64,000 nt of DNA from Candidatus Omnitrophota bacterium (GTDB taxonomy: Bacteria > Omnitrophota > Gorgyraeia > Tantalellales > Tantalellaceae). The position numbers were made by a program, and so were the translations under genes. Below the pieces are notes generated by a model, which searched no databases, was not told the origin of the DNA, and saw only the letters and a list, made by a program, of their open reading frames with translations. The stretch spans positions 189 through 64,188 of the forward strand of contig JADGBR010000004.1 in assembly GCA_015231405.1 (NCBI GenBank), read 5' to 3'. Below, in pieces: positions 13,124 through 50,111 of this stretch. The number at the start of each line of letters is the position of its first letter. Position 1 is the stretch's first letter.

Positions 13124-14254
13124 CTACCCCCGCCCCCTGCCTGCCTTGCCGGCAGGCAGGCTCCCTGCACCATGCGCCATGCCTCTTATCTTCCCCTCTA
13201 CCAACTGCCGAACGAACCTGAACTCCGGCCACCATCCCCCACCCACGAACTTCCGCACCTTCGGGAACACGGCGCACTTGAGGCACGGCGAGGCCGGGTC
13301 CGGCTCGATACGCCCCATTAAGACCTGTTTCATACGGACATACTTCTTCCCTTTCACGCACTCGCGAAGCCCGGACTCGAACACATTACCCAGATCCCCC
13401 CACTCGTTCAGACAGCAGCCCAGAAGTTTACCGTCCCAGTTTATCATCGGGGAGAACCAGAGCTGATAACAGGGGAATTTATACATGCTCGAGGTCTTTC
13501 CCTCATACTCCTCGCGGGAGGCATACCCTATCTCTTTCCTGACAAATTCCTTATTTTTAACGGGCGAATATTCCGGGTGGGCGTTCAGCTTAGGCCGGAA
13601 ACTCATGCCAAGGGTTCGGGCCATTTCCCTGGCGAGCGGGATATCATGTTCATTATGCCCATAAACTATGAATTGCCATGTAAGAGCCGGATACTCCGAT
13701 CCGTATTTTTTCTTAAACTCGTTAATTTTCCTGATATTCCCGATGACTTTATCAAAATCGCCGTTCACACGGTATATCTTATACGTGGCCGCGCTTGCCC
13801 CGTCCAAAGAAACATACATCGACCTGAAACGGTACTTGACCAGGGCCTCCAGCATCTCATCCGAAACGGTATTAAGGTTAACCCCGTTCTCTGCCGTAAG
13901 GATCACCCCTTTTTCAAAAGCGTACCGGATGATCTCCAAAAGCTCGGGATTTAGGAATATCTCCCCGTAATTCGACAGCTCTATCCGCTTGAACCCCGGG
14001 AACCTTTCCACAAACCCTTTAAAATCCTTGAACTTCAGGTACCCCTTCCCGATAACCCCCATATCCCCAACCCCTTGAGGACACTCCGGGCACCTGAGCT
14101 GGCAAACAGAAGACGCCTCCAGGCGTACCTTATCCCCCAGCACGCCGTACCTGATATAATTGCTTATAATCGAACTGATCCTCATTATCTTAATATCCCG
14201 GCCTATTCTCCTGGTATATTGTGTAATTTTACCCGCACTTATGGGTGTTGTCAC
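13124..14254 (-). CDS. radical SAM protein with C-terminal SPASM/twitch-like Cys cluster (first of four paralogues)
   Basis: CQLRCPEC (CxxxCxxC) lies near the N-terminus. The C-terminal Cys-rich region reads FPCYQLW...LLGCCLNEWGDLGNVF...PCLKCAVF. It is a paralogue of the ORFs at 26638, 44401 and 48044. The true start may be the internal Met (MRISSIIS, near 14185). Confidence 0.7.
   Translation of the reverse strand: MTTPISAGKITQYTRRIGRDIKIMRISSIISNYIRYGVLGDKVRLEASSVCQLRCPECPQGVGDMGVIGKGYLKFKDFKGFVERFPGFKRIELSNYGEIFLNPELLEIIRYAFEKGVILTAENGVNLNTVSDEMLEALVKYRFRSMYVSLDGASAATYKIYRVNGDFDKVIGNIRKINEFKKKYGSEYPALTWQFIVYGHNEHDIPLAREMARTLGMSFRPKLNAHPEYSPVKNKEFVRKEIGYASREEYEGKTSSMYKFPCYQLWFSPMINWDGKLLGCCLNEWGDLGNVFESGLRECVKGKKYVRMKQVLMGRIEPDPASPCLKCAVFPKVRKFVGGGWWPEFRFVRQLVEGKIRGMAHGAGSLPAGKAGRGRG
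13136..13160. repeat. perfect GC-rich hairpin (10-bp arms CCTGCCTGCC / GGCAGGCAGG, 5-nt loop) at the radical SAM / TPR-peptidase gene junction
   Basis: Read directly from the sequence: cctgcctgcc ttgcc ggcaggcagg. It lies within a locally GC-rich stretch (13120-13340). Confidence 0.85.
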
Positions 14255-14356
14255 TCCAAAAACATCTTAATTAAGAAGATATAGCGTACACACCTGTCCT
14301 GTGATAATATAATTTCGATTCGCGTCGAATCTGTCGAACCGACCCGGGAGACAATA

Positions 14357-21866: not shown

Positions 21867-22883
21867 TCATTTAATATCCTTGGATAGATACCCCGCTAGC
21901 ACCTGCGCCACGACGTTCTGGCCTTTAGCGTCCCATGAACTGCGCAACCAGACATAACTGCCGTGTTCACCTTCGTATCGGACAGCCTTAGGGACGATCC
22001 CCACGAAAGTGATCCCGTTCTTCTCGGCGGCGGCCTGAATATCCTTAAAGAAAGGATCTTCCTCATCGGACGGAATAATATATATTTTTTTACCTGAGGG
22101 AACGATAGCCTTGATCTTAACTAAAACGGTCTCAAAGTTCCCCCTGGCTCTTTCATAAGACTTGTCTTCACCTTTGCGTATTTTAGCGAATTGTTCTTTT
22201 TGCCTGTTAAGATATAGTTTCCGGTAAATGATATTTCCTATCTCGCTCAAAGCTACCGACCCAAGATCTAACCCCAGAAAGAATAAACCACGATACGAAT
22301 TTTTATAGAAAATTTCACCCTTTTCCGATAAATACGGTCTCGCATGAGTTCTCGCGATAAACCCGGAGGAATAACATTCAGCCTCTAGCATAGGGTCGGC
22401 ATATACGATGTCCGTGAATCTTGTCTGAAAAACTATAATATCCGGATCGATCTTTTTGATCCATTCTTCCAAAACAAGATATTTCTGAAGCATCCCATAC
22501 CCTTCGACGGCATAAACAAATATTTCTATCGCTAAAGAATTCGCGAGAAGCCGCGGATAGGTATACGCGTTTGGCATATATATCGACTGGGTAACTCCGT
22601 CCCCGATAAAGAGGACTTTCTTCTTTCCCTTCGGCTTCAAGCTCCCGAAAGATATGAACCCGTTATCGTCATATTTGATATTCTGCTCATATGAGATCCC
22701 GTAATTGTCCGAAAGAAATCCTTTATATGTGTAGCCCGGCCTGGTTTTCCAACCTAATTTCGCATCCTTAACGATACACCCTCTCCCCGGAACGTCGCTA
22801 AACCAGAATCTGGATCCGGCTTCAATAGCCACCATAGCCACGATGACAAAAACAGCCGTTTTAATTATCTTCACCATTCGCAC
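21867..22883 (-). CDS. membrane-anchored SGNH/GDSL-hydrolase-like protein (putative glycan O-acyl esterase/transferase)
   Basis: N-terminal TM helix IIKTAVFVIVAMVAIEAG. The motif VLFIGDGVTQSIY is GDS(L)-like, and IIVFQTRFTDIV also fits. Weak assignment. Confidence 0.35.
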   Translation of the reverse strand: MRMVKIIKTAVFVIVAMVAIEAGSRFWFSDVPGRGCIVKDAKLGWKTRPGYTYKGFLSDNYGISYEQNIKYDDNGFISFGSLKPKGKKKVLFIGDGVTQSIYMPNAYTYPRLLANSLAIEIFVYAVEGYGMLQKYLVLEEWIKKIDPDIIVFQTRFTDIVYADPMLEAECYSSGFIARTHARPYLSEKGEIFYKNSYRGLFFLGLDLGSVALSEIGNIIYRKLYLNRQKEQFAKIRKGEDKSYERARGNFETVLVKIKAIVPSGKKIYIIPSDEEDPFFKDIQAAAEKNGITFVGIVPKAVRYEGEHGSYVWLRSSWDAKGQNVVAQVLAGYLSKDIK

Positions 22884-25218: not shown

Positions 25219-25231
25219 AAAATACCGGCTC

Positions 25232-26641: not shown

Positions 26642-26676
26642 TGCGAGTCCGCCACAGGAGGACGAAGCAATCTCTC
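26634..26676. repeat. third copy of the short palindromic repeat (GCCCGTCATTGCGAG-TCCGCCACAGGAG-GACGAAGCAATCTC)
   Basis: Shares the CGTCATTGCGAG ... GACGAAGCAATC ends with the 19801-19850 and 19891-19927 copies. It lies at the junction of the 25232..26641 and 26638..27645 ORFs. Confidence 0.45.
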
Positions 26677-28816: not shown

Positions 28817-28818
28817 TA

Positions 28819-31606: not shown

Positions 31607-31615
31607 ATTATCAGA

Positions 31616-37633: not shown

Positions 37634-37637
37634 AAGT

Positions 37638-38726: not shown

Positions 38727-38738
38727 TTTACCCCTCCC

Positions 38739-39713: not shown

Positions 39714-40497
39714 CTACAACTATCTGGGTGCCTGTGACATACGCTGACAGGTCACTTGCCAGATAAGCTACGGCGCCTTTAAGGTCTTCCTCGACGGCCA
39801 TTCTCCCGAGCGGAGTTCTTTCATTATATCTCTCGTGAAATCTCACGTCCTGCCCGCGCCATACGCCTCCGGAAACTATCGAATTCACCCTTACTTCCGG
39901 TGCCAGCGTAGTAGCGAGATATCGCGCCAATTGCGTAAGTCCGGCCTTGGACACGCCATAAGCCGCCGGGCTTGTCATCCTGGTCCCTTCGTATAATCTA
40001 TTATCAGGAGCGATAGCTCCGTGTATCGATGAGATCAGAATTACCGAACTCTTCTTTGACTTTTTTAAAAACGGCTCCGCTTCCTGAGCGATAATAAAAG
40101 CCGAGCTCAGATTGACCTTCATGGCTTTATCCCACGCCACCAAAGTCTGCTCCTTGAACGGCACACCCCATCCGGGAAGGTCCGTAGTCCCTACCAAAGC
40201 GGCCGAGTGGACTATGATATCTATCCCTCCCAACGTTTCGGCCGTTCTCCTCACCCCAAGCCTTACCGCGCTCTCATCCTCTAGATCTACGGCGAACGGA
40301 CAAGCCCTGGCGCCATATCCGCTGGAATTAAGATCCTCGCATCTGGCGCGGCACACCCCGTCCGCGATGTCCCAAACAACCGTCTTCGCCCCGAGTTCCA
40401 TGAGCGCTTCCAGAACAGCCAGCCCGATATGCCCCGCGCCTCCCGTAACAAGCGCCGTTCTGCCGGAAAGATCCATCAGCTCTTTGATCTTCTTCAT
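39691..40497 (-). CDS. short-chain dehydrogenase/reductase (PtmA-like)
   Basis: TALVTGGAGHIGLAV (TGxxxGxG) and the YxxxK region YGVSKAGL. Confidence 0.8.
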   Translation of the reverse strand: MKKIKELMDLSGRTALVTGGAGHIGLAVLEALMELGAKTVVWDIADGVCRARCEDLNSSGYGARACPFAVDLEDESAVRLGVRRTAETLGGIDIIVHSAALVGTTDLPGWGVPFKEQTLVAWDKAMKVNLSSAFIIAQEAEPFLKKSKKSSVILISSIHGAIAPDNRLYEGTRMTSPAAYGVSKAGLTQLARYLATTLAPEVRVNSIVSGGVWRGQDVRFHERYNERTPLGRMAVEEDLKGAVAYLASDLSAYVTGTQIVVDGGYTAW

Positions 40498-40498
40498 A

Positions 40499-41212
40499 TC
40501 AACCGTTCCTTTTTTTGAAAAGATATTCGGCTATCCCTAGGTCTTCTTCCGTATCGATATCCATAGCCCTCTCTTCGGGAACCTCGACCGTCTTCACCTT
40601 CAGGTCAAACAACGACGTCATTCTGAACATCCGTTCGGTGACGCGCACAGCGTAAGCGACCGTCGTAATATCAAAGACCTCTGGAGACTCCTGCCGCCTC
40701 AACACTTTCCCGGCTGGCGGGATCACGAGCGTCGCGTCCCCGTTATCAACGATCTTAACCATATTGAAGAACGGACTTTTCTTTGATCTTGTTACGGTTA
40801 TCACTATATCCGCGTCACTCGCAAGAAGTCTTTCGACACAATTCTCAATATCCACAGGTTTCCGTAGCGGCGAAGTGGCCGGGATCGAGACCAGAATATC
40901 GACATCCCTACCGGTTATTTCCTTCATCGCCGTGACTGCGTGTTTCCAGGATAGCACTTCCGGAGAATCGTCCGAAGCGAGATATGCCGGCCTCATGAAA
41001 GGCACATCAGCCCCGGCCTTACGGGAGATCTCCGCTATCCTTTCATCATCCGTAGATACGATCACACGGTCCAGAAGATCGACCTTCTTCGCGCACTCTA
41101 TAGCGTGGGCTATTAGCGGTTTACCTGCAAAATCCCGGATATTCTTACCCGGCACGGTCTTGGACCCGCCCCTGGCGAAGATCGCGCCTAATATGTACGG
41201 CTTAGTCGTCAT
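40499..41212 (-). CDS. legF: CMP-nonulosonic acid synthetase (acylneuraminate cytidylyltransferase family, LegF/NeuA-like)
   Basis: ILGAIFARGGSKTVPGKNIRDFAGKPLIAHAIE. Family length ~235 aa. Confidence 0.8.
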   Translation of the reverse strand: MTTKPYILGAIFARGGSKTVPGKNIRDFAGKPLIAHAIECAKKVDLLDRVIVSTDDERIAEISRKAGADVPFMRPAYLASDDSPEVLSWKHAVTAMKEITGRDVDILVSIPATSPLRKPVDIENCVERLLASDADIVITVTRSKKSPFFNMVKIVDNGDATLVIPPAGKVLRRQESPEVFDITTVAYAVRVTERMFRMTSLFDLKVKTVEVPEERAMDIDTEEDLGIAEYLFKKRNG

Positions 41213-41979
41213 AAAGACCCTGTCAATCGGATATATTCCTTTGCCGATTCGTAGACCATAGCGGATATAAAATTAATGAACGGTTTATCATCCTTCTCAT
41301 GGCTTTGCGCTTTTTTAATGGCGTCGATATAGTCATTTCTCAGGATAGGCGGGATAATAGTTACAACATATCCTGTCTGCAAAAGCGCGAGATTCATAAG
41401 AAGCCGCGCCGTCCTCCCATTACCATCGACAAAAGGATGTATCGCTACAAGCTCTTTATGCAGACGCGCCGAAAATTCCACGGGATGATATTTTTTGCGC
41501 ATAGAAGCGATACTGCCGGTGAATTTTTTCATAAGAGCGGGGACTTCCGCGTGACTTGGCGGGATATAACTTGATCCTGTTATGAGTACGTTAACATTAC
41601 GGTATTTTCCGGCTTCCTTCTCATCCACGCGATAATAAAACAGATGATGAAGCCTCAAAACATCGTCTTCCGTTATTTCGCTGTTTTTCGCCAGGTCATA
41701 CAAAAAAGAGAACGCCTCACTATGACCCATCGCCTCGTAATGGTCTTTTAACGGCTTACCACCCACGGTTATCCCGTCCTCAATAACGATCTTTGTCTCA
41801 GTTTCGGTAAGCGAGTTCCCCTCGATAGCGTTCGAGGAATATGTCAGTCCTATACGGTAATACTCTTTAAGCTGTTTTAACGCGTTCAGAGACAATGGCC
41901 TCTCAGCATCGATCTTCGTTTTAAGCCCGTCTATCTCACTGATCCGATTTTCGTATTTGATCATACTATCCCCTTTCAC
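41209..41979 (-). CDS. fic: Fic-family protein (AMPylase), class II with N-terminal inhibitory helix motif
   Basis: Canonical HPFVDGNGRTARLLMNLAL (HPFx[D/E]GNGRxxR). The N-terminal SSNAIEGN matches the (S/T)xxxE(G/N) inhibitory motif. Its stop overlaps the legF start by 4 nt. Confidence 0.85.
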   Translation of the reverse strand: MKGDSMIKYENRISEIDGLKTKIDAERPLSLNALKQLKEYYRIGLTYSSNAIEGNSLTETETKIVIEDGITVGGKPLKDHYEAMGHSEAFSFLYDLAKNSEITEDDVLRLHHLFYYRVDEKEAGKYRNVNVLITGSSYIPPSHAEVPALMKKFTGSIASMRKKYHPVEFSARLHKELVAIHPFVDGNGRTARLLMNLALLQTGYVVTIIPPILRNDYIDAIKKAQSHEKDDKPFINFISAMVYESAKEYIRLTGSL

Positions 41980-41988
41980 TTAGGCCAC

Positions 41989-43356
41989 TTAGTCACCAGA
42001 CAACGCCTCCCAATACCCGCCTTTATCAGGGCCAACCCTCTTAATACGTCCCGAATACTTTAACTTCCTCAGATTCCACTCGACTCCGCGGCGCGTAAGA
42101 CCTGTCTTATCCATGATACGCTTTTGTGTGATACGTGGATCATCCTTAATAAGATCGAATATTATCTCCACAGTTTTCTCCACAGTTTTCTCCACAGCCT
42201 TATTTATTCCTATTCCCGGTCCCGCGTCATCTTCCCATTTTGGACGGTAGAAAACCACGACAAAGCCCGTCTTAAGGCGTTTGAACTCTACCTTGATCCC
42301 GGCAGAGACACATTCATCATGGATACGTTTTATACCGCTCCCCCAACGCTCTATATCCTTGGATTTATACATCGTTTCGGCGATCAAAGGATTGCGTAAG
42401 ATTGAATGTTCATTACCGAAAAAGAAATCCTCCGGATCGATCTCATCCGGAAAAAGACCGGGATTATAGATCTCAATACGGTCCCTGAAGATCGCCACCT
42501 CATTCCCCTTAGGGTTGGAATAATCCCGATGGCACAAAGAATTCCCGATAGCTTCACGGACAGCCTCAACAGGGATCTCAGGAATTTCCTTGCGTGGCCC
42601 TGTTTTTATTTCAGCCCGCCACTTCATATTCCCGTTAACGTAGACCTCGGCTTGCTGACGCAAACTAAAGAGATTCCCTTTGAACGATTTGATATCCAAA
42701 AACGTTACTTTGTCTGTCCCGGCAAAGATCGCGGCCTGAACTTCCAGTGTATTGTCGTCACAAAATAAAGTTTCAGCAGCATGCAACAAACGATTCCCAT
42801 TCAACAAATGCAATTTATGCAATGTCGTTTTTACATCAACGAAATCGAAATCTACACGCTTGGCCGTCTTTGCTTTACGCATAAACTCCTTAACGGCTTC
42901 TTCGTTAACATCGTTAATCGTCTTTTCGGATATCTCCCTCTCCCAAAGCAACTTCTTCTTGCCTAAAAAGAGCTTCTCGATCTCGCGAACGCTCAAAGCC
43001 TTATCCGACTCACCGACACGAATATATGCCCTGCCGTATGCAAAATACGGGTTATCGGTGCCATGGGCCTCGACCACGACGCACTCTTTGCCATCAATAT
43101 TACGATGGTCGACCTTAGGGAAAACCCTTGGCTCTGTATTATCGACGACCGCCTGCGTTACGTCCTTGATCGTATTGCGCCCGACCATCTGCCCCAGGAC
43201 CGTGCCATCGTCCGCGATCCCAAAATATACCTCCGCCCGTCCGCGCTTATTAAGCATCGCAACGACAGATATAACCGCTTCTTTAAGTTCCGAGGTCGAT
43301 TTTTTAAATTCTATTGTTTCCGATTCTTTAAAGATCATTATATTCGTCTCCAGCAA
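41989..43356 (-). CDS. AlbA_2 (Schlafen-like) domain + ATPase-like + C-terminal wHTH transcriptional regulator (COG2865-type)
   Basis: N-terminal ESETIEFKKSTSELKEAVISVVAMLNKRGRAEVYFGIADDGTVLG is the AlbA_2 signature. C-terminal HTH ITQKRIMDKTGLTRRGVEWNLRKLKYSGRIKRVG. Confidence 0.7.
   Translation of the reverse strand: MLETNIMIFKESETIEFKKSTSELKEAVISVVAMLNKRGRAEVYFGIADDGTVLGQMVGRNTIKDVTQAVVDNTEPRVFPKVDHRNIDGKECVVVEAHGTDNPYFAYGRAYIRVGESDKALSVREIEKLFLGKKKLLWEREISEKTINDVNEEAVKEFMRKAKTAKRVDFDFVDVKTTLHKLHLLNGNRLLHAAETLFCDDNTLEVQAAIFAGTDKVTFLDIKSFKGNLFSLRQQAEVYVNGNMKWRAEIKTGPRKEIPEIPVEAVREAIGNSLCHRDYSNPKGNEVAIFRDRIEIYNPGLFPDEIDPEDFFFGNEHSILRNPLIAETMYKSKDIERWGSGIKRIHDECVSAGIKVEFKRLKTGFVVVFYRPKWEDDAGPGIGINKAVEKTVEKTVEIIFDLIKDDPRITQKRIMDKTGLTRRGVEWNLRKLKYSGRIKRVGPDKGGYWEALSGD
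42165..42198. repeat. in-frame 12-nt tandem repeat (TCTCCACAGTTT, ~2.8 copies) inside the regulator CDS
   Basis: tctccacagttt tctccacagttt tctccacagc, which encodes VEKTVEKTVE on the minus strand. Confidence 0.8.
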
Positions 43357-43411
43357 TATTGCTTCGTGCTTTTCCGTTTAATAAATATCTGCTCTCCGGA
43401 AGAGTTAACTT

Positions 43412-44404
43412 TTATATGACATAGTTCCGGGATCCATATATATTCGGGCATTTCTTCTGATCCCTCTTAAACCAATCTACCGTTATCCTCAGCCCTTCGT
43501 CTATTGACGTCCCAGGGCGCCATCCGGTCAATTTATACAATTTATCGTTCGATCCCACGAGTCTTTCGACTTCGCTCCCTTCCGGTCTAACCCTAACAGG
43601 ATCTTTATTAATGGTTATTTTTCTGCCGATAATCCCCGATATTTTTTCTGCGACCTCTTTTACCGAGTATTCCGACCCGGTGGCTATATTAATAGCTTCA
43701 CCGATGACATTATCGGATGACGCTATCCGGACGAACCCCTCCACTACATCGGCGACGAACACAAGGTCACGCGTAGGCGTAATATTCCCCAGGGATATTT
43801 TATCCGCGCCCGAGAGCGCCTGCGTAATTATAGCGGGTATAACGGCTCTCGCCGACTGCCTCGGCCCGTATGTGTTAAAAGGCCGAACGGTGACGACCGG
43901 CAGGTTAAATGACTTGAAAAAAGCCTCAGACATGGCGTCAGCGGCTATTTTCGTGGCGGAATAGGGTGATTGTCCCTGTTTTGGATGACCCTCATCTATA
44001 GGAACTCGCAACGCGGTCCCGTACACCTCGGAAGTCGAAGTTACGAGGACCCTTTTCACCGACAGCTCACGGGCGGCCTGTAAAACATTGAGCGTACCTT
44101 TAATATTCGTATCCACATAGCTGTCCGTGGCATGATACGAATACGGGATACCTATAAGCGCCGCCAGGTGGAATACCGTATCAATGCCCTTAACTATCTG
44201 CCTCACATGTACTGGATCCCTCACGTCACCCAAAAAGATCTCAATATTATCCTTAATTTCGGTATCGAGAGTATCCAGCCACCCGTTGCTGTTGAAAGAA
44301 TTATAGCAACATAACGCTCGGACTTTCATCCCATCAAGGACCAGCCTTTCCGCTAAATGACTGCCTATAAAACCGTCGGCTCCTGTGACCAATACTTTCC
44401 TCAT
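43412..44404 (-). CDS. legB: NAD-dependent sugar-nucleotide 4,6-dehydratase/epimerase (LegB-like)
   Basis: MRKVLVTGADGFIGSHLAERL (GxxGxxG) and SPYSATKIAAD (YxxxK). The extended SDR fold is present. Confidence 0.75.
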   Translation of the reverse strand: MRKVLVTGADGFIGSHLAERLVLDGMKVRALCCYNSFNSNGWLDTLDTEIKDNIEIFLGDVRDPVHVRQIVKGIDTVFHLAALIGIPYSYHATDSYVDTNIKGTLNVLQAARELSVKRVLVTSTSEVYGTALRVPIDEGHPKQGQSPYSATKIAADAMSEAFFKSFNLPVVTVRPFNTYGPRQSARAVIPAIITQALSGADKISLGNITPTRDLVFVADVVEGFVRIASSDNVIGEAINIATGSEYSVKEVAEKISGIIGRKITINKDPVRVRPEGSEVERLVGSNDKLYKLTGWRPGTSIDEGLRITVDWFKRDQKKCPNIYGSRNYVI

Positions 44405-45420
44405 ACCCCTTCCTTCTTTTGTATCCCGGACAACTTGCCGTTAAAATCATCCCTAGACCTATCGTCCATTTCATAGAAGATCACACAATCTTTACAGGTA
44501 TCAATAGATCCGCGCATGAACTCATTCTGAAGCGCCCTTCTCGCCGGAGACCTGATTATCTCCTTTAACCCAGTCTTCTTGATATCCCCGAGAACAATAC
44601 GGCCATTAAAGTCCTGGCAACATATCACCGCTTTCCCTGAAGGGGAGAAAGTTATCGTTTCAAATATATTAGCGCAATAATCGACGTTTTTTCGAAGCTG
44701 GAACGAATACATATTGGCCCTGCACCGTTCATCCTTAAAATCTCTGTAACGTATCCGCCCTTCTTCCCAGTCAAATACTCCCATGGTTTTACCATAATCG
44801 ACCCGGTCGACATATTTTGACCACAAGCCATTAAATTTCTCGATATCGGTCTCCCTATTAACCATTACTGAGATCGAAATATATGGTTTAATTTTCTGCC
44901 CCGACAGGTATTCCTTAAAAGCTCTGATATTACTGAGTACGACGTCATAGCTGCAGTTCTTTCTGTAATACTCATAGCTTTTTCTATCCCACCCCTCAAT
45001 GGAATATTTTATCCAATCCACCTTTGATAAGGCTTCAAAATGCCGATCAAGGAATTGTGCGTTCGTAGAGATGATCACATGGAACTTTTTGTCTTTTAGA
45101 TAACGTATGTATTTATCGATATTCGGATGGAGCAATGATTCTCCGCTCGCGTACAACCTCGTCTCCTTTATTCCCAGATGATCCGCCTGATCGACCAGAT
45201 CGTAAAAAACCTGATCTTCCATATTAACTCCAGGGCCGGAAGACACCAAAGTCCTGGGGCAAAAAGGGCATTCGGCGTTACATATACTTGTTACGTCTAT
45301 CACTATAGTACTAGGAAAAAACAAACCGCCGAAAAGGCGCTTCTTTATACGATCCCTCACTCCGGCATTCCCGATCTTTTTAACTCTTCTAAGCAAAAAA
45401 TTCTTTAAATATTTTCGCAT
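44401..45420 (-). CDS. radical SAM protein with SPASM/twitch-like C-terminal Cys cluster (paralogue 3)
   Basis: CNAECPFCPR. C-terminal CANIFETITFSPSGKAVICCQDFNGRIVLGDI...CKDCVIF. Confidence 0.75.
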   Translation of the reverse strand: MRKYLKNFLLRRVKKIGNAGVRDRIKKRLFGGLFFPSTIVIDVTSICNAECPFCPRTLVSSGPGVNMEDQVFYDLVDQADHLGIKETRLYASGESLLHPNIDKYIRYLKDKKFHVIISTNAQFLDRHFEALSKVDWIKYSIEGWDRKSYEYYRKNCSYDVVLSNIRAFKEYLSGQKIKPYISISVMVNRETDIEKFNGLWSKYVDRVDYGKTMGVFDWEEGRIRYRDFKDERCRANMYSFQLRKNVDYCANIFETITFSPSGKAVICCQDFNGRIVLGDIKKTGLKEIIRSPARRALQNEFMRGSIDTCKDCVIFYEMDDRSRDDFNGKLSGIQKKEGV

Positions 45421-45424
45421 AATT

Positions 45425-46591
45425 TTACGGTCTACTGGGCTTATTCCATAGACTGTTCTCGGTCTTTTTGGAAGTTATCACATTTACTCGCGCCGAAACA
45501 ACAATGCTCTCTATCTGCTTATAGATATGATGATATTTCCCGTCATTAATGATCATATCCATTGCAGCTTCCCGCTTATTCTTTCTTTCCCGACCTTTTT
45601 TGTCAAAGTATTTGAAATTAATCGTCTTAAGTTTTCTTGCCAATGGATCTGGCAAGCATTTATCTATTATCATAGCCGGCAAATAACTACGCTTATTGCT
45701 TTTCCTTCGCCCGCCCGCTATCGATCTTTCAAGATATTTCCGGAAGAAATCATTTGCGACCTCGATGTCAACATTGTCATATTGAGCAAGATATCTAGCC
45801 AAACAACACGATGCCTTATCGAGCCGCTGAGCATAATCCGCCCTATCCCTCACTGGGATATATGCATCACCTTCCCTTAGTGTATTTTTCGATATCGGTA
45901 TTACCTCACGAAACATATAGGGTTCATTAAAGACCTTCAGCTTGCCAAATATTATACTTAACCCCTGAGGGATCAATTCGCCAAAATACGGATCCGACGT
46001 GTTGTCGACCACTTCTTTCCACATCTTTCGCATATGCTCCGTCCGATGAACACCGTAAAAGCTGCTCCCCCTGTATTCATTATACAGGCTCTTTATCCTC
46101 TCGAATGGGCTATCCTGGTCGATTGACTTCGTAGTATAGTACAAAAGATTGTTCTTGAACTCCAACACCCTGTTCTCGTTTTCCTCTATATAGTGCGAGT
46201 AATATATACCGTGAGCGACCGAGTAACTCCTATTTTCCTCCAAATATGATATACACTTTTCCACCGTCTCAGGAATAATAAAATCATCATCCGCGCAAAT
46301 AACTACGTACGGCGTCTCAATTTCGTCAAGCGCATATTTAATTTTCGCCATGTAGAGTTCTTCGGACTTTACTTTTCTATATTTAATTTGCCTTATATTG
46401 AAATATTTCTCGACAACCTCGAACCCGTCATAACGGTCGCTGGTATCCATAACTATTATTTGCATAGGATACGCATAAGATTCATAGAAACGGAACAATC
46501 TTGACAGAAATAGGTACCTGTTCATCGTTGGAATGATCATCGTAATTTTGTCAAAAAGCCCGGTATTCATTTTTTCAGTTTTCATACACAT
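45425..46591 (-). CDS. GT-A-fold glycosyltransferase-like protein
   Basis: ITMIIPTMNRYLFLSRLFRFYESY...IIVMDTSD with DxD-like ICADDDFIIPE. The family is uncertain. Confidence 0.45.
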   Translation of the reverse strand: MCMKTEKMNTGLFDKITMIIPTMNRYLFLSRLFRFYESYAYPMQIIVMDTSDRYDGFEVVEKYFNIRQIKYRKVKSEELYMAKIKYALDEIETPYVVICADDDFIIPETVEKCISYLEENRSYSVAHGIYYSHYIEENENRVLEFKNNLLYYTTKSIDQDSPFERIKSLYNEYRGSSFYGVHRTEHMRKMWKEVVDNTSDPYFGELIPQGLSIIFGKLKVFNEPYMFREVIPISKNTLREGDAYIPVRDRADYAQRLDKASCCLARYLAQYDNVDIEVANDFFRKYLERSIAGGRRKSNKRSYLPAMIIDKCLPDPLARKLKTINFKYFDKKGRERKNKREAAMDMIINDGKYHHIYKQIESIVVSARVNVITSKKTENSLWNKPSRP

Positions 46592-46636: not shown

Positions 46637-48016
46637 TCAACCTTTCAAAATATTTAAATATTGCGGAGATACCGGTACTCCTATCGGCTTCTTCAATAGA
46701 TCATTCATGACACAAAAATAATACTCCAAAACATCATCAGGCAAATTAGTAAGATTGATCTCTTTTTCGTAGAAAAGATTCCCCAGGCTACTGACAAATT
46801 TCCATTGGTCCTTAACCACCCCTGCGTTTATACAATCCCTCCACAAACGTGTACCCGGCAATGGGGTCAAGTATGAAACTTTTCCCTTATTCTCTAATCC
46901 GTTCCTCCTTATAAAGCTTATCATCTCCTTTAGATCGTTCTCAGTGTCCTCGGGAAACCCTATTATGAAGTTAACCGCCACATCTATACCGTATTTTCTT
47001 AAAAGCCCTATTTTTTCTTCCATAATGTTCACATCGATATTCTTATTAACTTTATTAAGGGTCTGCTGGTTGACTGATTCGATCCCGATGGATATCACCC
47101 TCAATCCGCTATCCCTTCCCCATCCGCAGATATCCGGGTCGATCGCGTCGACCCTGCATTGGCCAATATAACTAAAATCCATTTTTCTTTCAGTTTTCCG
47201 CCTAACAAAGTCTTTAAAGTTGCTCTTTATGTCCAGAAAGTTTTCGTCGACAAAATAATATTTATTGTAGTCATACCTCGTCCTGACATAGCTTATCTCA
47301 TCCAGGACCGAATCGACGTCCCTTAGCCCTAAACCTTTTACTATTTTACTACAAAAAGAACAGTTTCCCTTACAGCCCCTTGAAGCCATGATCTCAAAAG
47401 ATTGCCCTGTTTCCCGCAGATAATTTATATAAAATTCCATATGCAACACGCTGTAATCAGGCTGAGATAGGTCCGATAACTTATATAGACCCCCGCTCTT
47501 TTTTCCCGCCAGTATCCTATAGCCTCTCTCGCCAACGACCCCATTCTTATTTCTCGCGTAACAGTCCAATGGCATCCCGGCTTTTTCACTGCCCCCGTTT
47601 ATATAATTAATTAATTCAGGGAACCTGGCTTCTCCTTCCCCGCAGACTATATAATCGCAAACACAATTATTCAATATCAGTTCAGGATCCGAAGTCGGAA
47701 GCGCCCCGCCATAGACTATTACGTTCCCGGGATCGATCGCTTTTGCGAGTCTCGCGAAGTGTTCTACCTGGTTAATATGGTCGTTACCGGCAAGAACGCT
47801 GAAGCCGACTATGGAGCCGGAGCCCGACAACCCAGCCCGGAAATGGTCATCCCGTTTTTCCGGATCAACGGGCACAAGATCGATCACTCTTGGTTCGATC
47901 CCGTTCTTTTTAAGCGCGTTAGCCAGCACAGCCAGCCATATCGGCAACTGGACCGCGACGCATTTCCTGGTCACATTCACTAAAATTACTTCTTTGCTTT
48001 TGCCAATATTTATCAT
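46637..48016 (-). CDS. B12-binding-domain radical SAM enzyme (class B)
   Basis: N-terminal VILVNVTRKCVAVQLPIWLAVLANALKKNGIEPRVIDL (B12-binding-like). Radical SAM motif MASRGCKGNCSFCSK. Confidence 0.8.
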   Translation of the reverse strand: MINIGKSKEVILVNVTRKCVAVQLPIWLAVLANALKKNGIEPRVIDLVPVDPEKRDDHFRAGLSGSGSIVGFSVLAGNDHINQVEHFARLAKAIDPGNVIVYGGALPTSDPELILNNCVCDYIVCGEGEARFPELINYINGGSEKAGMPLDCYARNKNGVVGERGYRILAGKKSGGLYKLSDLSQPDYSVLHMEFYINYLRETGQSFEIMASRGCKGNCSFCSKIVKGLGLRDVDSVLDEISYVRTRYDYNKYYFVDENFLDIKSNFKDFVRRKTERKMDFSYIGQCRVDAIDPDICGWGRDSGLRVISIGIESVNQQTLNKVNKNIDVNIMEEKIGLLRKYGIDVAVNFIIGFPEDTENDLKEMISFIRRNGLENKGKVSYLTPLPGTRLWRDCINAGVVKDQWKFVSSLGNLFYEKEINLTNLPDDVLEYYFCVMNDLLKKPIGVPVSPQYLNILKG

Positions 48017-48043
48017 ATCTTCACCAGGCTTCCCGCCGGAAGT

Positions 48044-48955
48044 TCAGGCAATTATTTCCTGCTTCTTTTCGCTTGAAAGGATATTGCATTCACGGCATAT
48101 TTTAATGCTGTTCTTATTCCCCGAGGAATGTATTTCCCTTAAACCCGTTATTTTACGGCCGTTAAATATCTGTATCGGGGAGTGATCATTGACATCTCCC
48201 AAAACATATTGACCATGATGAAGGTCTGAACAGCATAAAGGGACCCTGCCATCCCAGAATACCATAAACCTATCCCACAAGTGGTGACAGGCTATATCAC
48301 TTATATCATCCTGTCCCTCCCCCCCGGGATTTCCATCTCCCCTTATTTCTCCTCCCCATGAGTGCATATCATAGCCGATGATCATATCTTTTTTGCCCCT
48401 ATCGATCACGTTCTCCCAATAATTTTTAAACGCTTTCCATTCGTCAATATTGTTTTTCTGCCGTATGAATCTCATGACAAAACGGGTTTTATACCCCGCC
48501 CTGTCCCTTTTATGGATAATATCCCGGGCGTTGTCTGTTACTCTATCGAAATCGACACCCCCTCTAATGGCTTCATGCGTTTCTTTATTCACGCCGTCAA
48601 TGCTAAAAATTACCGTATCTAATCCCGAATCCAGGATCTTGTCCTGCCTTTGAGCATCCAAAAGGTCCCCATTTGTAGCGATAGCGATATTCCTATAGCC
48701 TTTGGCTTTTAAATAACTTATCTTATCAAAGATAGTTCTATCCAATAACGGTTCCCCCAAACCCCATAGATCAACCTTCTCGATTTGCTCATTATAAGGC
48801 GCCAGATCATCGGCGACCTTCCTGAAAAGCTCCATTGCCATTGTCCCTTTTTTCCTGTCCGTAGGCATGTCTATCGGGCACATACAGCAATGGGCGTTAC
48901 ACCCAAAAACCACCTCTATCTGTATCCTTTTTGGAACAATAATATCACTGCTCAT
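48044..48955 (-). CDS. radical SAM protein with SPASM/twitch-like C-terminal Cys cluster (paralogue 4)
   Basis: CNAHCCMCPID. C-terminal CHHLWDRFMVFWDGRVPLCCSDLHHGQYVLGDV...CRECNIL. Confidence 0.75.
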   Translation of the reverse strand: MSSDIIVPKRIQIEVVFGCNAHCCMCPIDMPTDRKKGTMAMELFRKVADDLAPYNEQIEKVDLWGLGEPLLDRTIFDKISYLKAKGYRNIAIATNGDLLDAQRQDKILDSGLDTVIFSIDGVNKETHEAIRGGVDFDRVTDNARDIIHKRDRAGYKTRFVMRFIRQKNNIDEWKAFKNYWENVIDRGKKDMIIGYDMHSWGGEIRGDGNPGGEGQDDISDIACHHLWDRFMVFWDGRVPLCCSDLHHGQYVLGDVNDHSPIQIFNGRKITGLREIHSSGNKNSIKICRECNILSSEKKQEIIA

Positions 48956-50111
48956 TTTTCTTACTCCTCAGCAATTCCTTGGGCTTTTCTATTTCGATCA
49001 AGGTCTTGTAAACCTGCCCGCCCCTGTGAACAAGAATATCGGGATATTTGGACAAGAATTCCAGAGCCCCATACAGTCTCTTATTTATTTCTTCCTGCGG
49101 ATAGAACTGGACACCGATCTTTTCGATCTTGGCATGAGGAAACCTCTCAAACGCGTGGACAGCGACCTCATCGAATATCTCAACGACATATTCTAATGTT
49201 TCTTTTTCATCAGATCCAGAAGCCGTCGGAAAGCCCACCATTATGTCCGTCCGCAATACAATATCAGGCCTCATTCTTTTAAGCTTTTTCAGATCGTCAT
49301 ACAGTCCAAGAACTACCGGCCGACGCTTCATCATGGACAACAAACGATCGCTTGTTGTCTGGATCAATACCTGAAAATCCTTTATTTTATTTTCACGCGT
49401 TAATAACCCGAACAGAACATCCTTATATTCATACGCCCAATCAGCGTTCACCTGGGTAAGATGAACAGCGGGAGCTATCTCCAAAACCTTTTTTATTAAA
49501 TCAGGGAAATATGGTCCGCCCAGATCCGTACCATAAGAACCCGTGTCATTGCCATGCAAAATAATGGTATGAGCGCCCGTCAGAACAGAGTTCCGCACAT
49601 CCTCGATTATTTGGGCAAAGGGCCGGCTTTTCAACTCACCGATCCCAAGTTTATGAGGACAATACGGACAATCAGACGAACATCCAGTCTGTATCAGGAT
49701 GAATCTTTTCCCGGGATCATAAAGTCTGTATTCCTCCTTGGCGGCGAATACATCCGGGTAAGGTACAGCCTCCAGAGATACCGAAGGATCGCTGACAATA
49801 TCCCCAAGCCTCTCCCACTCACCGGCGCCGATGGCCTGATCAGGGGCCAGTGTTCCAACCTCCTCGGGAAAAACCTTTGTCAAACACCCGAAAACGATCA
49901 CTTTAGCGCCTGTCCCCTTCGCCTCTTTGATCAAGCCCAAAGCTTCGTATCCGAGACTTTTAAACGCCCCGCAACAACCGACAATATGAACATCGGCGCA
50001 TTCCTTATCCGAAACCTTCTCCCATCCGTTAATATCAAGGAATCTGCCTACCCTGTTAAGTATAAGCTTGTACGGAGTGCAGACATTATCTTTTATTATA
50101 TATTTTTTCAA
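48945..50111 (-). CDS. MiaB/RimO-like radical SAM enzyme (methylthiotransferase N-terminal domain + radical SAM core, no obvious TRAM domain)
   Basis: The N-terminal MTTase-like Cys region reads VHIVGCCGAFKS...VIVFGCLT. Radical SAM motif GCSSDCPYCPH. Confidence 0.6.
   Translation of the reverse strand: MKKYIIKDNVCTPYKLILNRVGRFLDINGWEKVSDKECADVHIVGCCGAFKSLGYEALGLIKEAKGTGAKVIVFGCLTKVFPEEVGTLAPDQAIGAGEWERLGDIVSDPSVSLEAVPYPDVFAAKEEYRLYDPGKRFILIQTGCSSDCPYCPHKLGIGELKSRPFAQIIEDVRNSVLTGAHTIILHGNDTGSYGTDLGGPYFPDLIKKVLEIAPAVHLTQVNADWAYEYKDVLFGLLTRENKIKDFQVLIQTTSDRLLSMMKRRPVVLGLYDDLKKLKRMRPDIVLRTDIMVGFPTASGSDEKETLEYVVEIFDEVAVHAFERFPHAKIEKIGVQFYPQEEINKRLYGALEFLSKYPDILVHRGGQVYKTLIEIEKPKELLRSKKNEQ

What the first reader, a model, noticed from the sequence alone, without database searches (positions are those of the whole stretch)
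13124..50111. Eight radical SAM enzymes (4 small SPASM paralogues, 3 B12-binding class B, 1 MiaB-like) embedded in one glycan locus
Glycan loci rarely contain even one radical SAM. Here there are eight: 13124..14254, 23845..25218, 26638..27645, 31616..33184, 44401..45420, 46637..48016, 48044..48955 and 48945..50111. Four form a paralogous family of ~300-340 aa with an N-terminal CxxxCxxC and a conserved C-terminal CC...C...C cluster. Class B (B12) radical SAMs typically methylate unactivated carbons. The MTTase-like enzyme lacks a TRAM domain. Together with two C-methyltransferases this predicts a glycan with multiple C-branched or otherwise radical-modified sugars, a pathway with no characterised precedent.
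Basis: partly seen in the sequence, partly recalled or inferred. Interest (0 to 1): 0.8.

Follow-up and report, generated by a model that had tools for sequence, protein, structure and literature searches.

The report
Radical SAM enzymes tailoring surface sugars
A long surface-sugar gene cluster in an uncultured Omnitrophota bacterium carries seven to eight intact radical SAM enzymes from uncharacterised families that sit in sugar pathways in many phyla, which points to untested radical chemistry on cell-surface sugars.

Summary
All eight ORFs are intact radical SAM (rSAM) genes with the stated domains. Seven lie in one minus-strand glycan operon (63.8 to 21.9 kb). That operon combines a legionaminic-acid-type pathway, an NDP-heptose/6-deoxyhexose tailoring cassette, glycosyltransferases and an ABC exporter.

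- **"SPASM" paralogues:** they conserve only 4-5 C-terminal Cys, enough for one auxiliary cluster. They align to BtrN, a sugar-acting Twitch enzyme, by sequence profile and by fold. Relatives occur as natural fusions to RmlC epimerase, GT2, GNAT and methyltransferase domains. There is no room for precursor peptides next to S2-S4.
- **MiaB-like enzyme:** it belongs to a discrete TRAM-less clade that keeps both Fe-S Cys triads. All five neighbourhoods examined are sugar clusters.
- **Class-B-like enzymes:** B3 is closest to the B12 C-methyltransferase QCMT. B1 and B2 are closest among solved structures to AprD4, a cobalamin-free sugar diol dehydratase, so "class B means methylation" is unsafe for them.
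- **Conservation:** the RmlC, B12-rSAM, Twitch, GT module recurs across more than 10 phyla, including cultured Pseudodesulfovibrio piezophilus and Magnetospirillum.
- **Eighth gene:** S1 is translationally coupled to a TPR-peptidase gene, so its place in the glycan pathway is doubtful.

No paper found characterises any of these families. I read this as a new variant of rSAM sugar tailoring. The chemistry is inferred, not shown.

The parts
48044..48955 (-). S4: BtrN-like Twitch rSAM, 303 aa. It is the central member of the conserved cassette.
   Evidence: Pfam Radical_SAM + SPASM. The family has invariant C19/C23/C26 plus only C223, C241, C287 and C290. The family profile aligns to BtrN in both the core and the Twitch domain (E 1.5e-14). 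The AF2 model has pLDDT 88; Foldseek top hits are BtrN (5e-14) and BlsE (1e-11). Orthologues at 41-60% identity occur in 22 GTDB loci from many phyla. An RmlC-S4 fusion exists, P0247.
48945..50111 (-). TRAM-less MiaB/RimO-like rSAM (methylthiotransferase architecture), 388 aa. It overlaps S4 by 11 nt.
   Evidence: UPF0004 + Radical_SAM with no TRAM. TIGR00089 scores 145 bits against a cut-off of 251. The family has invariant C11, C47, C76 and C144, C148, C151. It forms a discrete clade of 382-430 aa (two shorter, apparently truncated), separated from TRAM-bearing RimO at about 30% identity. The AF2 model has pLDDT 94.7; Foldseek hits are MtaB/RimO/MiaB at 1e-23 to 1e-20; the C-terminus is helical, not a beta-barrel. 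Five of five neighbourhoods are sugar clusters.
46637..48016 (-). B3: B12-binding rSAM, 459 aa, probable cobalamin-dependent C-methyltransferase type.
   Evidence: Pfam B12-binding at 56 bits + Radical_SAM. The nearest solved structure is QCMT 9ccb (4.8e-14); its identity comes from PMC12931638. Orthologues at 40-53% identity lie next to S4 orthologues in 8 of 22 GTDB loci and in M. magnetotacticum.
44401..45420 (-). S3: Twitch-like rSAM, 339 aa, between the TIGR04440 glycosyltransferase and LegB.
   Evidence: Pfam. This is a rare family, 13 clusters found. Orthologues lie in NeuB / CTP_transf_3 / His_biosynth + GATase (WbuY/Z-like) / ABC-exporter loci L051 and L052.
31616..33184 (-). B2: B12-binding-domain rSAM, 522 aa.
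   Evidence: Pfam B12-binding at 43 bits + Radical_SAM. The only PDB relative is AprD4 6fd2 (1.1e-11). No NCBIfam cut-off is met. No orthologue was found in the loci examined; best tblastn matches are 20-32%.
26638..27645 (-). S2: Twitch-like rSAM, 335 aa.
   Evidence: Pfam. At least 98 metagenome relatives at 38-69% identity. In 68 orthologues C27/31/34 and C218, C237, C238, C283, C286 are invariant, and C270 is variable. Neighbours include a B1 orthologue (52-53%), an orthologue of the 25232 protein (28-41%), GT2 and NulO genes.
23845..25218 (-). B1: B12-binding rSAM, 457 aa.
   Evidence: Pfam B12-binding at 61 bits + Radical_SAM. The nearest solved structure is AprD4 (5.6e-20), then QCMT. 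NCBIfam best hits are ApyD/HpnJ/BchE/PhpK, all far below their cut-offs. A 52% orthologue lies directly beside the S2 orthologue in L089 and L090.
13124..14254 (-). S1: distant Twitch/SPASM-type rSAM (376-aa ORF, probable start at M24). It heads a separate operon, so membership in the glycan pathway is doubtful.
   Evidence: Pfam Radical_SAM at 35 bits + SPASM at 33 bits. E about 1e-9 to S2-S4. Its stop overlaps the probable start of the TPR/Peptidase_MA gene. It lies divergent from the GT2-methyltransferase fusion at 14357-15733.
50108..58387 (-). NDP-sugar tailoring cassette. It holds a nucleotidyltransferase (57665), SDR (56614), C-methyltransferase (55359), RmlC 3,5-epimerase (54812), SDR reductase (53937), HddA-like GHMP kinase (52898), TylF O-MT (52046), CmcI-type MT (51280) and an MT_23/MT_14 methyltransferase (50108).
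   Evidence: Pfam. NCBIfam: RmlC scores 173.6 against cut-off 155.75; the GHMP kinase is best matched by HddA at 162 bits against 600. The same gene set and order occur in L003, L049, L050 and L133, where SIS (GmhA) or HAD (GmhB) domains are also present.
33757..44404 (-). Legionaminic-acid-type nonulosonic acid pathway. It holds LegB (43412), a CMP-NulO synthetase (40499), PtmA-like SDR (39691), GFO oxidoreductase (38739), LegC (37638), NeuD/LegH (37019), NeuB/LegI (35998), NeuC/LegG (34820) and a CBS-nucleotidyltransferase (33757). A Fic gene and a Schlafen/AlbA_2 gene (41209-43356) interrupt it.
   Evidence: NCBIfam scores against cut-offs: LegB 473.9/475, LegC 385.9/420, NeuD 175.7/160.8, NeuB 469.7/399.65, NeuC 462.9/235.9. 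Pfam.
45425..46591 (-). Glycosyltransferase (TIGR04440 type). It recurs just downstream of S4 orthologues.
   Evidence: TIGR04440 scores 171 bits against cut-off 70. Relatives at 25-35% identity lie downstream of S4 orthologues in L004, L006, L013, L017, L024 and L025.
21867..33735 (-). Distal glycan block. It holds a hexapeptide acetyltransferase (33184), a 682-aa unknown (29558), a methyltransferase (28819), GT4 (27632), a 469-aa unknown linked to S2 (25232), GT2 (22871) and a 338-aa unknown (21867), interleaved with B2, S2 and B1.
   Evidence: Pfam. Four ORFs in the window match no family even at E <= 1. Relatives of the 25232 protein lie within 20 kb of S2 relatives in 7 loci (28-41% identity).
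58403..63764 (-). Head of the operon. It holds a WbuX N-acetyl-sugar amidotransferase (62574), a 106-aa ORF with a DSL motif (62236), an AMP-binding ligase (60872), MarR (60242) and a HepA/MsbA-like ABC exporter (58403).
   Evidence: WbuX scores 328.5 bits against cut-off 203.2; the exporter is best matched by HepA. Pfam. The carrier-protein reading of the 106-aa ORF is not confirmed.

Best explanation
The region is a surface-glycan biosynthesis operon of a Candidatus Omnitrophota MAG. It makes a legionaminic-acid-type nonulosonic acid and a heavily tailored NDP-heptose or 6-deoxyhexose. It then assembles and exports a glycan using GT2, GT4 and TIGR04440 transferases and a HepA/MsbA-like ABC exporter.

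Seven rSAM enzymes in this operon are sugar-tailoring enzymes, not peptide or RNA modifiers.

1. The three Twitch-type enzymes (S2, S3, S4) resemble BtrN. Each has one rSAM cluster and one auxiliary [4Fe-4S] cluster. I infer that each abstracts a hydrogen from a sugar carbon and then oxidises, dehydrates or epimerises that centre. For S4 the likely substrate is the NDP-4-keto sugar handled by RmlC-type epimerases, or the epimerase/reductase product.
2. B3 is paired with S4 in many genomes. I infer that it is a cobalamin-dependent C-methyltransferase acting on an unactivated sugar carbon.
3. B1 and B2 have the same two-domain architecture, but they may be methylases or AprD4-like dehydratases.
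4. The TRAM-less MiaB-like enzyme keeps both Fe-S clusters of methylthiotransferases. It always follows an MT_23-family methyltransferase (a weak MT_14 C-terminal match in 3 of the 5 relatives). I infer that it inserts sulfur (methylthio) at a sugar C-H.

Shown: gene integrity, domains, conserved Cys ligands, fold similarity, conserved synteny and domain fusions. Inferred: every substrate and reaction.
For: - **Integrity and domains:**
- **Glycan context:**
- **S4 family:** four invariant auxiliary Cys match those of BtrN column for column. Foldseek ranks BtrN then BlsE first. There are 499 clusters at E <= 1e-30, including fusions to RmlC, GT2, GNAT and methyltransferase domains.
- **Conserved synteny:** RmlC-like genes occur in 18 of 22 GTDB loci, GHMP kinase in 16 of 22, B3 orthologues in 8 of 22, and tandem S4 copies in 8.
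- **Same cassette elsewhere:** Omnitrophota, Chloroflexota, Xenobiia and cultured P. piezophilus. A B12-rSAM + S4 pair sits inside a NeuB / CTP_transf_3 cluster in M. magnetotacticum MS-1.
- **S3 and S2:** S3 orthologues lie in NulO loci. S2 orthologues lie beside B1 orthologues, GTs and NulO genes.
- **MiaB-like enzyme:** both Cys triads are invariant. The fold is MtaB/RimO/MiaB without a beta-barrel C-terminus. It forms a discrete TRAM-less clade.
- **No room for precursors:** gaps around S2-S4 are at most 55 bp.
Against: - No enzyme of any of these families has been assayed. No NCBIfam equivalog cut-off is reached by any of the eight.
- Peptide maturases (SuiB, CteB, anSME) follow closely behind BtrN and BlsE in the fold search.
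- GmhA and GmhB, needed for a heptose precursor, are absent from the window. HddA and HddC score far below their cut-offs, so the precursor sugar is uncertain.
- GT2-rSAM fusions could mean action after glycosyl transfer rather than on NDP-sugars.
- B1 and B2 are nearest to a cobalamin-free dehydratase.
- B2 has no orthologue in the loci examined, so it has no independent context evidence.
- S1 is coupled to a TPR-peptidase gene.
Confidence: 0.72

Rival explanations
1. The small SPASM-type enzymes are RiPP or protein maturases (sactipeptide, anSME or ranthipeptide type). They would act on a peptide or on an enzyme of the locus, and their position among glycan genes would be incidental.
For: Pfam labels the C-terminal domain SPASM. 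NCBIfam gives weak N-terminal matches to several maturases. SuiB, CteB and anSME are fold matches at E about 1e-10. Some JGI records call relatives 'AslB'. S1 is coupled to a TPR/Peptidase_MA gene.
Against: Gaps beside S2, S3 and S4 are 0-55 bp, with no small ORF. The proteins are 303-339 aa with no leader-recognition domain and only 4-5 conserved C-terminal Cys. The best sequence and fold matches are BtrN and BlsE. No sulfatase gene is present in the locus. Orthologues lie consistently in sugar clusters, and relatives are fused to RmlC, GT2, GNAT and MT domains.
Confidence: 0.04
2. The rSAM enzymes act late. Their substrate would be the lipid- or protein-linked glycan, or non-sugar substituents such as N-acyl groups of the nonulosonic acid, rather than soluble NDP-sugar intermediates.
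For: GT2-rSAM fusions P0258, P0287 and P0325, and a GNAT-rSAM fusion P0330. S2, B1 and B2 are interleaved with glycosyltransferases and unknown proteins, not with NDP-sugar enzymes. An AMP-binding ligase and WbuX in the operon indicate N-acyl or amidino decoration. In M. magnetotacticum the B12 + S4 pair lies in a NulO cluster without heptose genes.
Against: The closest fusion to S4 (P0247, 43% identity) is to RmlC, an NDP-4-keto-sugar enzyme. S4 orthologues sit directly after RmlC and SDR genes in most loci. BtrN, BlsE, DesII and AprD4 all use small soluble substrates (established knowledge).
Confidence: 0.2
3. B1 and B2 are not methyltransferases. They would be cobalamin-independent AprD4-like radical dehydratases, or other rearranging enzymes, that deoxygenate a sugar together with a reductase.
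For: AprD4 is the best solved relative of B1 (5.6e-20) and the only one of B2 (1.1e-11). AprD4 does not bind cobalamin although it clusters with class B enzymes (PMC12931638). NCBIfam AprD4 matches are 76.7 and 47.4 bits.
Against: The AprD4 match covers only the rSAM core and C-terminus. The N-terminal domains of B1 and B2 pass the Pfam B12-binding gathering score (60.7 and 43.4 against 32.1). For B1, methylase or cyclase families (ApyD, HpnJ, BchE, PhpK) score higher than AprD4 in NCBIfam.
Confidence: 0.3
4. S1 (13124-14254) is unrelated to the glycan pathway. It would serve the downstream TPR/Peptidase_MA protein or the giant LamG/RHS toxin, so the glycan locus holds seven rSAM enzymes rather than eight.
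For: The S1 stop overlaps the probable start of the TPR-peptidase gene, and the giant RHS gene follows on the same strand. S1 is the most divergent paralogue. No S1 orthologue appeared in any of the 130 related loci.
Against: S1 shares the Twitch-like Cys pattern with S2-S4. It lies 102 bp from a divergently transcribed GT2-methyltransferase fusion and among other GT genes.
Confidence: 0.5

Closest known systems
BtrN (butirosin 2-deoxy-scyllo-inosamine dehydrogenase), the founding Twitch-domain rSAM; PDB 4m7t
   Same: It is the best sequence and fold match of S4. Both are short enzymes with an rSAM core and a C-terminal domain. Four Cys ligands for one auxiliary [4Fe-4S] cluster align column by column. 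BtrN uses a carbohydrate-like substrate.
   Different: Identity is only about 18%. S2-S4 are 30-70 residues longer. They sit in cell-surface glycan operons, not an aminoglycoside cluster. The likely substrate is an NDP-sugar. Dehydrogenase activity is untested.
Other sugar-acting rSAM enzymes of antibiotic pathways: BlsE (7vob), DesII (8hzv), AprD4 (6fd2)
   Same: All perform radical chemistry on sugar rings (decarboxylation, deamination/dehydration, 1,2-diol dehydration). BlsE ranks second and DesII ranks 23rd in the S4 fold search. AprD4 is the closest solved relative of B1 and B2.
   Different: All scores are far below the NCBIfam family cut-offs. These enzymes come from secondary-metabolite pathways of actinomycetes. 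Here the setting is a primary surface glycan, with several such enzymes in one operon.
Class B (cobalamin-dependent) rSAM methyltransferases: QCMT/MgmA (9ccb), TokK, and, from my own knowledge, the sugar C-methylases GenK and GenD1
   Same: All share an N-terminal B12-binding Rossmann domain plus an rSAM core. QCMT is the nearest solved structure to B3.
   Different: No equivalog cut-off is met. Cobalamin binding is not testable here. The substrate would be a nucleotide-sugar or glycan rather than a peptide, carbapenem or aminoglycoside.
MiaB/RimO/MtaB methylthiotransferases
   Same: The N-terminal UPF0004 domain has three invariant Cys, and the rSAM triad is present. The fold match has TM about 0.75 at E 1e-23 to 1e-20.
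   Different: There is no TRAM domain; the C-terminus is helical. It is a discrete clade about 30% identical to RimO. It is always found in sugar clusters after an MT_23-family methyltransferase. The substrate is therefore unlikely to be tRNA or ribosomal protein S12.
Campylobacter-type legionaminic acid (Leg/Ptm) and GDP-heptose modification pathways
   Same: LegB, LegC, NeuD, NeuB, NeuC, a CMP-NulO synthetase and a CBS-nucleotidyltransferase are present. The HddA-like kinase, nucleotidyltransferase, SDR, cupin 3,5-epimerase, SDR reductase and O-methyltransferases mirror heptose tailoring. Relatives add GmhA and GmhB domains.
   Different: The characterised pathways contain no rSAM enzyme, as far as I know and as far as the literature searches show. 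Here three rSAM enzymes and two C-methyltransferases are embedded in the cassette.

Membership tests
Radical SAM superfamily | CxxxCxxC cluster motif and a PF04055 match above gathering score | tested here: met
   All eight have one CxxxCxxC motif. PF04055 scores 33.7-97.5 bits against a cut-off of 29.5.
SPASM-domain rSAM (two auxiliary clusters) | A 7-8 Cys C-terminal motif that ligates two auxiliary [4Fe-4S] clusters | tested here: not met
   PF13186 matches, but only C223, C241, C287 and C290 are invariant in the S4 family. Only five Cys are invariant in 68 S2 orthologues.
Twitch-domain rSAM (BtrN type) | A truncated SPASM-like domain with four Cys ligating one auxiliary cluster | tested here: met
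   The profile alignment places the four invariant Cys of the S4 family on the four Twitch-domain Cys of BtrN. BtrN is the top Foldseek hit, with target-normalised TM 0.76.
Twitch-domain rSAM (BtrN type) | Dehydrogenase activity on a carbinol carbon of a sugar or cyclitol | not testable with these tools
   This needs anaerobic enzymology.
RiPP / peptide-modifying rSAM maturases | An adjacent precursor peptide gene and/or a leader-recognition (RRE) domain | tested here: not met
   Gaps beside S2-S4 are at most 55 bp. No extra N-terminal domain is present. The only small ORF in the 620-bp gap is CopG-antitoxin-like and lies about 4 kb from the nearest rSAM gene.
Class B (B12-dependent) rSAM | An N-terminal B12-binding Rossmann domain followed by an rSAM core | tested here: met
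   PF02310 scores 60.7, 43.4 and 56.2 bits against a cut-off of 32.1 for B1, B2 and B3.
Class B (B12-dependent) rSAM | Actual cobalamin binding and methyl transfer | not testable with these tools
   AprD4, the nearest solved structure to B1 and B2, has a related domain but binds no cobalamin.
MiaB/RimO/MtaB methylthiotransferases | An N-terminal UPF0004 domain with three Cys for the auxiliary cluster, plus the rSAM triad | tested here: met
   C11, C47, C76 and C144, C148, C151 are invariant in 20 family members. PF00919 scores 26.5 bits against a cut-off of 27.
MiaB/RimO/MtaB methylthiotransferases | A C-terminal TRAM (RNA/protein substrate-binding) domain, and family score cut-offs | tested here: not met
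   No TRAM match. The C-terminal 60 residues are modelled as helices. TIGR00089 scores 145.5 bits against 251. TRAM_2 appears only in the distant RimO-like hits.
Legionaminic acid biosynthesis (Leg/Ptm) | LegB, LegC, LegH, LegG, LegI and LegF enzymes encoded together | tested here: met
   NeuB 469.7/399.65, NeuC 462.9/235.9 and NeuD 175.7/160.8 are above their cut-offs. LegB 473.9/475 and LegC 385.9/420 are just below. The cytidylyltransferase is best matched by PseF at 153.6/205.7.
GDP-D-glycero-D-manno-heptose pathway (GmhA, HddA, GmhB, HddC) | All four enzymes present and matching their equivalogs | tested here: inconclusive
   The kinase is best matched by HddA but scores 162/600. The nucleotidyltransferase scores 82/300 against HddC. 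No SIS or HAD gene is in the window. SIS and/or HAD domains are present in the syntenic cassettes L003, L049 and L050.

The most novel reading that the evidence does not exclude
The TRAM-less MiaB-like enzyme, together with its invariably adjacent methyltransferase and Twitch partner, installs a methylthio (or thiol) group on an unactivated carbon of a nucleotide-sugar. This would be the first radical C-S bond formation in glycan biosynthesis. The cassette as a whole would yield a C-methylated, thio-substituted heptose or 6-deoxyhexose on the cell surface of anaerobes from many phyla.
Probability: 0.25. Interest if true: 0.85.

Novelty: new variant of a known kind. Interest (0 to 1): 0.66.

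Why it matters
Radical SAM tailoring of sugars is known only from a handful of antibiotic pathways. Here whole families of such enzymes are built into cell-surface glycan operons. They comprise a Twitch family with about 500 clusters at 50% identity, a TRAM-less methylthiotransferase clade, and associated B12-domain enzymes. These operons occur in bacteria and archaea from more than ten phyla.

If the inferred chemistry is real, anaerobes decorate their surfaces or flagella with sugar structures that no current glycan database contains, such as C-methyl, deoxy or thio sugars. That would open new enzyme reactions for rSAM enzymology and new sugar building blocks for glycoengineering. The question is directly testable because cultured organisms carry the cassette: Pseudodesulfovibrio piezophilus, Paramagnetospirillum magnetotacticum MS-1 and Magnetospirillum sp. 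SS-4.

Tried and rejected
- **Peptide-maturase reading of S2-S4:** rejected. There is no room for precursor genes, the only small ORF in the large gap is antitoxin-like, and the best matches are BtrN and BlsE.
- **Anaerobic sulfatase maturase (the JGI 'AslB' label):** rejected. No sulfatase gene is in the locus, and the enzymes bind one auxiliary cluster, not two.
- **Pseudogenes or frameshifts:** rejected.
- **Riboswitch or other RNA control, such as a cobalamin riboswitch:** no Rfam match in the window.
- **Retrieving the source contig beyond the window:** failed. The exact-sequence look-ups found no record.
- **Assigning any rSAM to a named NCBIfam equivalog:** none reaches a cut-off.
- **Naming the four family-less ORFs (29558, 25232, 21867, 15704) and the 106-aa ORF:** no significant family match even at E <= 1.
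- **Literature:** eight topical searches (plus one that only resolved the identity of PDB 9CCB) found nothing on rSAM enzymes in nonulosonic-acid, flagellin-glycosylation, O-antigen or nucleotide-sugar contexts. The only related item is an uncharacterised rSAM gene in the C. jejuni HS:19 capsule locus (PMC8743553).

Full report
**Observation.** The window carries a nearly gap-free minus-strand operon from about 63.8 kb down to 21.9 kb, with strongly negative GC skew throughout. Pfam puts four of them as Radical_SAM + SPASM: S1 13124-14254, S2 26638-27645, S3 44401-45420 and S4 48044-48955. Three are B12-binding + Radical_SAM: B1 23845-25218, B2 31616-33184 and B3 46637-48016. One is UPF0004 + Radical_SAM with no TRAM, at 48945-50111. 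None reaches the curated cut-off of any NCBIfam equivalog. S2, S3 and S4 are 25-27% identical over their full length, and S1 is more remote. B1/B2/B3 are 21-30% identical.

**Locus.** A 100%-identical database entry shows that the source is a Candidatus Omnitrophica MAG. The operon has four parts.

- **Head (58.4-63.8 kb).** It holds a WbuX amidotransferase, an AMP-binding ligase, MarR and a HepA/MsbA-like ABC exporter.
- **NDP-sugar cassette (50.1-58.4 kb).** It holds a nucleotidyltransferase, an SDR, a C-methyltransferase, RmlC (above its cut-off), an SDR, an HddA-like GHMP kinase, TylF and CmcI methyltransferases, and a second MT_23/MT_14 methyltransferase.
- **Legionaminic-acid-type pathway (33.8-44.4 kb).** NeuB, NeuC and NeuD are above their cut-offs. 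LegB and LegC are just below.
- **Distal block (21.9-33.7 kb).** It holds GT2, GT4, a methyltransferase, an acetyltransferase and family-less proteins.

The MiaB-like gene, S4, B3, a TIGR04440 glycosyltransferase and S3 lie between the cassette and LegB. B2, S2 and B1 are interleaved with the distal block.

**The small enzymes are Twitch-like and sugar-associated.** In a 15-member alignment of S4 orthologues, only four C-terminal Cys are invariant. In 68 S2 orthologues, five are invariant. That is enough for one auxiliary cluster, not the two of a full SPASM domain.

- The S4 family profile matches BtrN in both the rSAM core and the Twitch domain, and the four Cys fall in the same columns (E 1.5e-14).
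- A confident model (pLDDT 88) finds BtrN and then BlsE as its best solved structures. Peptide maturases follow.
- The wider family has 499 clusters (at 50% identity) with E <= 1e-30. It includes natural fusions to an RmlC 3,5-epimerase (P0247, 43% identical to S4), to GT2 (three proteins), to a GNAT and to a SAM methyltransferase.
- Gaps next to S2, S3 and S4 are 0-55 bp, which leaves no room for precursor peptides.

**Conserved cassette.** S4 orthologues (41-60% identity) occur in 22 GTDB species representatives. These span Omnitrophota, Nitrospirae, Magnetococcales, Magnetospirillum, Lentisphaerae, Victivallis, Verrucomicrobia, Desulfobacteraceae, Saccharibacteria, Pelagibacteraceae, DPANN archaea and Methanosarcinales.

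- Within 10 kb of S4, 18 of 22 loci carry an RmlC-like gene and 16 of 22 carry the GHMP kinase (up to 66% identity across phyla).
- Eight carry a B3 orthologue, usually directly upstream of S4. Eight have tandem S4 copies. Several have the TIGR04440-type transferase directly downstream.
- The full gene order of the window's cassette recurs in another Omnitrophota MAG, a Chloroflexota MAG, a Xenobiia MAG and the cultured Pseudodesulfovibrio piezophilus. In those loci SIS (GmhA) and/or HAD (GmhB) domains complete a GDP-heptose route. In P. piezophilus a Maf/MptE-like gene lies nearby.
- In Paramagnetospirillum magnetotacticum MS-1 a B12-rSAM + S4 pair sits inside a NeuB / NeuC / CTP_transf_3 cluster.
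- S3 orthologues are rare but lie in NulO / His_biosynth + GATase (WbuY/Z-like) / ABC-exporter loci.
- S2 orthologues are common in metagenomes. They lie beside B1 orthologues (52-53%), relatives of the unknown 25232 protein, GT2 and NulO genes.
- Each in-locus paralogue is far closer to orthologues in other phyla (45-63%) than to its neighbours (about 25%). The paralogues are therefore old, functionally distinct lineages and not recent duplicates.
- Among 36 related loci of 15 kb or more, the number of rSAM genes per roughly 20 kb is 1 in 13 loci, 2 in 13, 3 in 5, 4 in 4 and 6 in one. The window therefore sits at the dense end of a recurrent pattern.

**The MiaB-like enzyme.** Its homologues form a discrete clade, typically 382-430 aa (two members look truncated) and 34-63% identical, without TRAM. 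The next hits are TRAM_2-bearing RimO proteins at about 30% identity. Both the N-terminal Cys triad (C11, C47, C76) and the rSAM triad are invariant. The model (pLDDT 94.7) superposes on MtaB, RimO and MiaB, but its C-terminus is helical rather than a TRAM barrel. All five neighbourhoods examined are sugar clusters. In each, the gene directly follows an MT_23-family methyltransferase (a weak MT_14 C-terminal match in 3 of 5). In three of them it directly precedes an S4 orthologue. More than 20 further contigs appear to carry both families, judging by shared contig lengths.

**The B12-domain enzymes.** All three pass the Pfam B12-binding gathering score. B3's nearest solved structure is 9ccb, which a 2026 review identifies as the B12-dependent glutamine C-methyltransferase QCMT. 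The nearest solved relative of B1 and B2 is AprD4. AprD4 is a 1,2-diol dehydratase acting on an aminoglycoside sugar, and it does not bind cobalamin. C-methylation is therefore the best guess for B3 and only one of two live options for B1 and B2. No orthologue of B2 turned up in the loci examined, so its assignment rests on its place in the operon.

**Mechanism (inferred).** The cassette activates a sugar-1-phosphate, probably a heptose by analogy with the syntenic loci. It then oxidises or dehydrates the sugar to a 4-keto intermediate, C-methylates it, epimerises it and reduces it, as in known heptose and deoxyhexose pathways. On top of this, three steps are proposed.

1. S4 abstracts a hydrogen from a sugar carbon, followed by oxidation, dehydration or epimerisation.
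2. B3 methylates an unactivated carbon.
3. The MiaB-like enzyme may install sulfur.

S3 is probably tied to the nonulosonic-acid branch. S2 and B1 (with B2 by position) are probably tied to the distal glycosyltransferase block. The alternative that some of them act after glycosyl transfer is open, given the GT2 fusions.

**S1.** Its stop codon overlaps the probable start of a membrane-anchored TPR/Peptidase_MA gene, which is followed by a 3490-aa LamG/RHS/PT-TG protein. No orthologue appeared in any related locus. I count it as an intact rSAM gene of uncertain affiliation.

**Novelty and verdict.** Eight topical full-text searches found no study of rSAM enzymes in nonulosonic-acid, flagellin-glycan, O-antigen or nucleotide-sugar contexts. 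The only related item is an unstudied rSAM gene in a C. jejuni capsule locus. Radical sugar tailoring itself is established in antibiotic pathways (BtrN, BlsE, DesII, AprD4). I therefore class this as a new variant of a known kind. It is real, widespread, uncharacterised and testable in cultured carriers, but its chemistry rests on inference.

Noticed in passing
window 1021-11493 (-), with 358-747 (-): A giant 3490-aa ORF has three Laminin_G_3 domains, an RHS repeat and a PT-TG pre-toxin domain at residues 3227-3279. This is a polymorphic-toxin architecture. The small four-TM ORF downstream (a weak DUF7144 match) could be its immunity protein.
   Followed up: partly
window 41209-43356 (-): A Fic gene and a Schlafen/AlbA_2-HATPase_c_4-HTH gene are inserted between the CMP-NulO synthetase and LegB inside the legionaminic-acid pathway. 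In PADLOC the Fic gene matches candidate defence families PDC-S04 (1.7e-30) and SoFic (4e-28). The Schlafen gene gives weak matches to Argonaute-associated modules. Together they look like a defence or toxin module nested in a glycan operon.
   Followed up: partly
window 19395-19652 (-): An 85-aa ORF in the only large intergenic gap gives weak CopG-antitoxin and NikA-like matches (about 2e-4). It lies immediately upstream of a 3-methyladenine glycosylase (Tag) gene at 18805-19398, and no toxin partner is evident.
   Followed up: partly
window 29558-31606, 25232-26641, 21867-22883, 15704-17785 (all -): Four sizeable ORFs (682, 469, 338 and 693 aa) match no Pfam or NCBIfam family even at lax thresholds. 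Relatives of the 469-aa protein (28-41% identity) lie near S2 relatives in 7 loci. The 693-aa protein has about 10 predicted TM segments plus a large C-terminal domain.
   Followed up: partly
window 60872-62556 (-): An AMP-binding ligase is followed by a 106-aa ORF with a 'GNIDSLGL' motif that recalls a carrier-protein phosphopantetheine site. No PP-binding match was found. It may relate to acyl decoration of the glycan.
   Followed up: partly
window 56614-58387 compared with L003 1596-2144, L050 2407-2976 and L049 2904-4160: The syntenic cassettes in relatives carry a SIS (GmhA-like) gene and/or a HAD domain fused to the nucleotidyltransferase. The window has neither: only 10 bp separate the nucleotidyltransferase and SDR genes. 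The first steps of the pathway must be encoded elsewhere, or the precursor differs.
   Followed up: no
L005, L007-L010, L013, L015, L017 (about 9-12 kb in each locus); P0247: S4 orthologues often occur as tandem pairs that are 45-54% identical to the window's S4. One representative is a single polypeptide fusing RmlC to the S4-type enzyme.
   Followed up: partly
window 62574-63764 (-), at the end of the window: WbuX (N-acetyl-sugar amidotransferase) is the last complete gene before the window ends. Its usual HisH/HisF-like partners (seen in L051 and L052) are not in view, so the operon probably continues beyond 64 kb.
   Followed up: no
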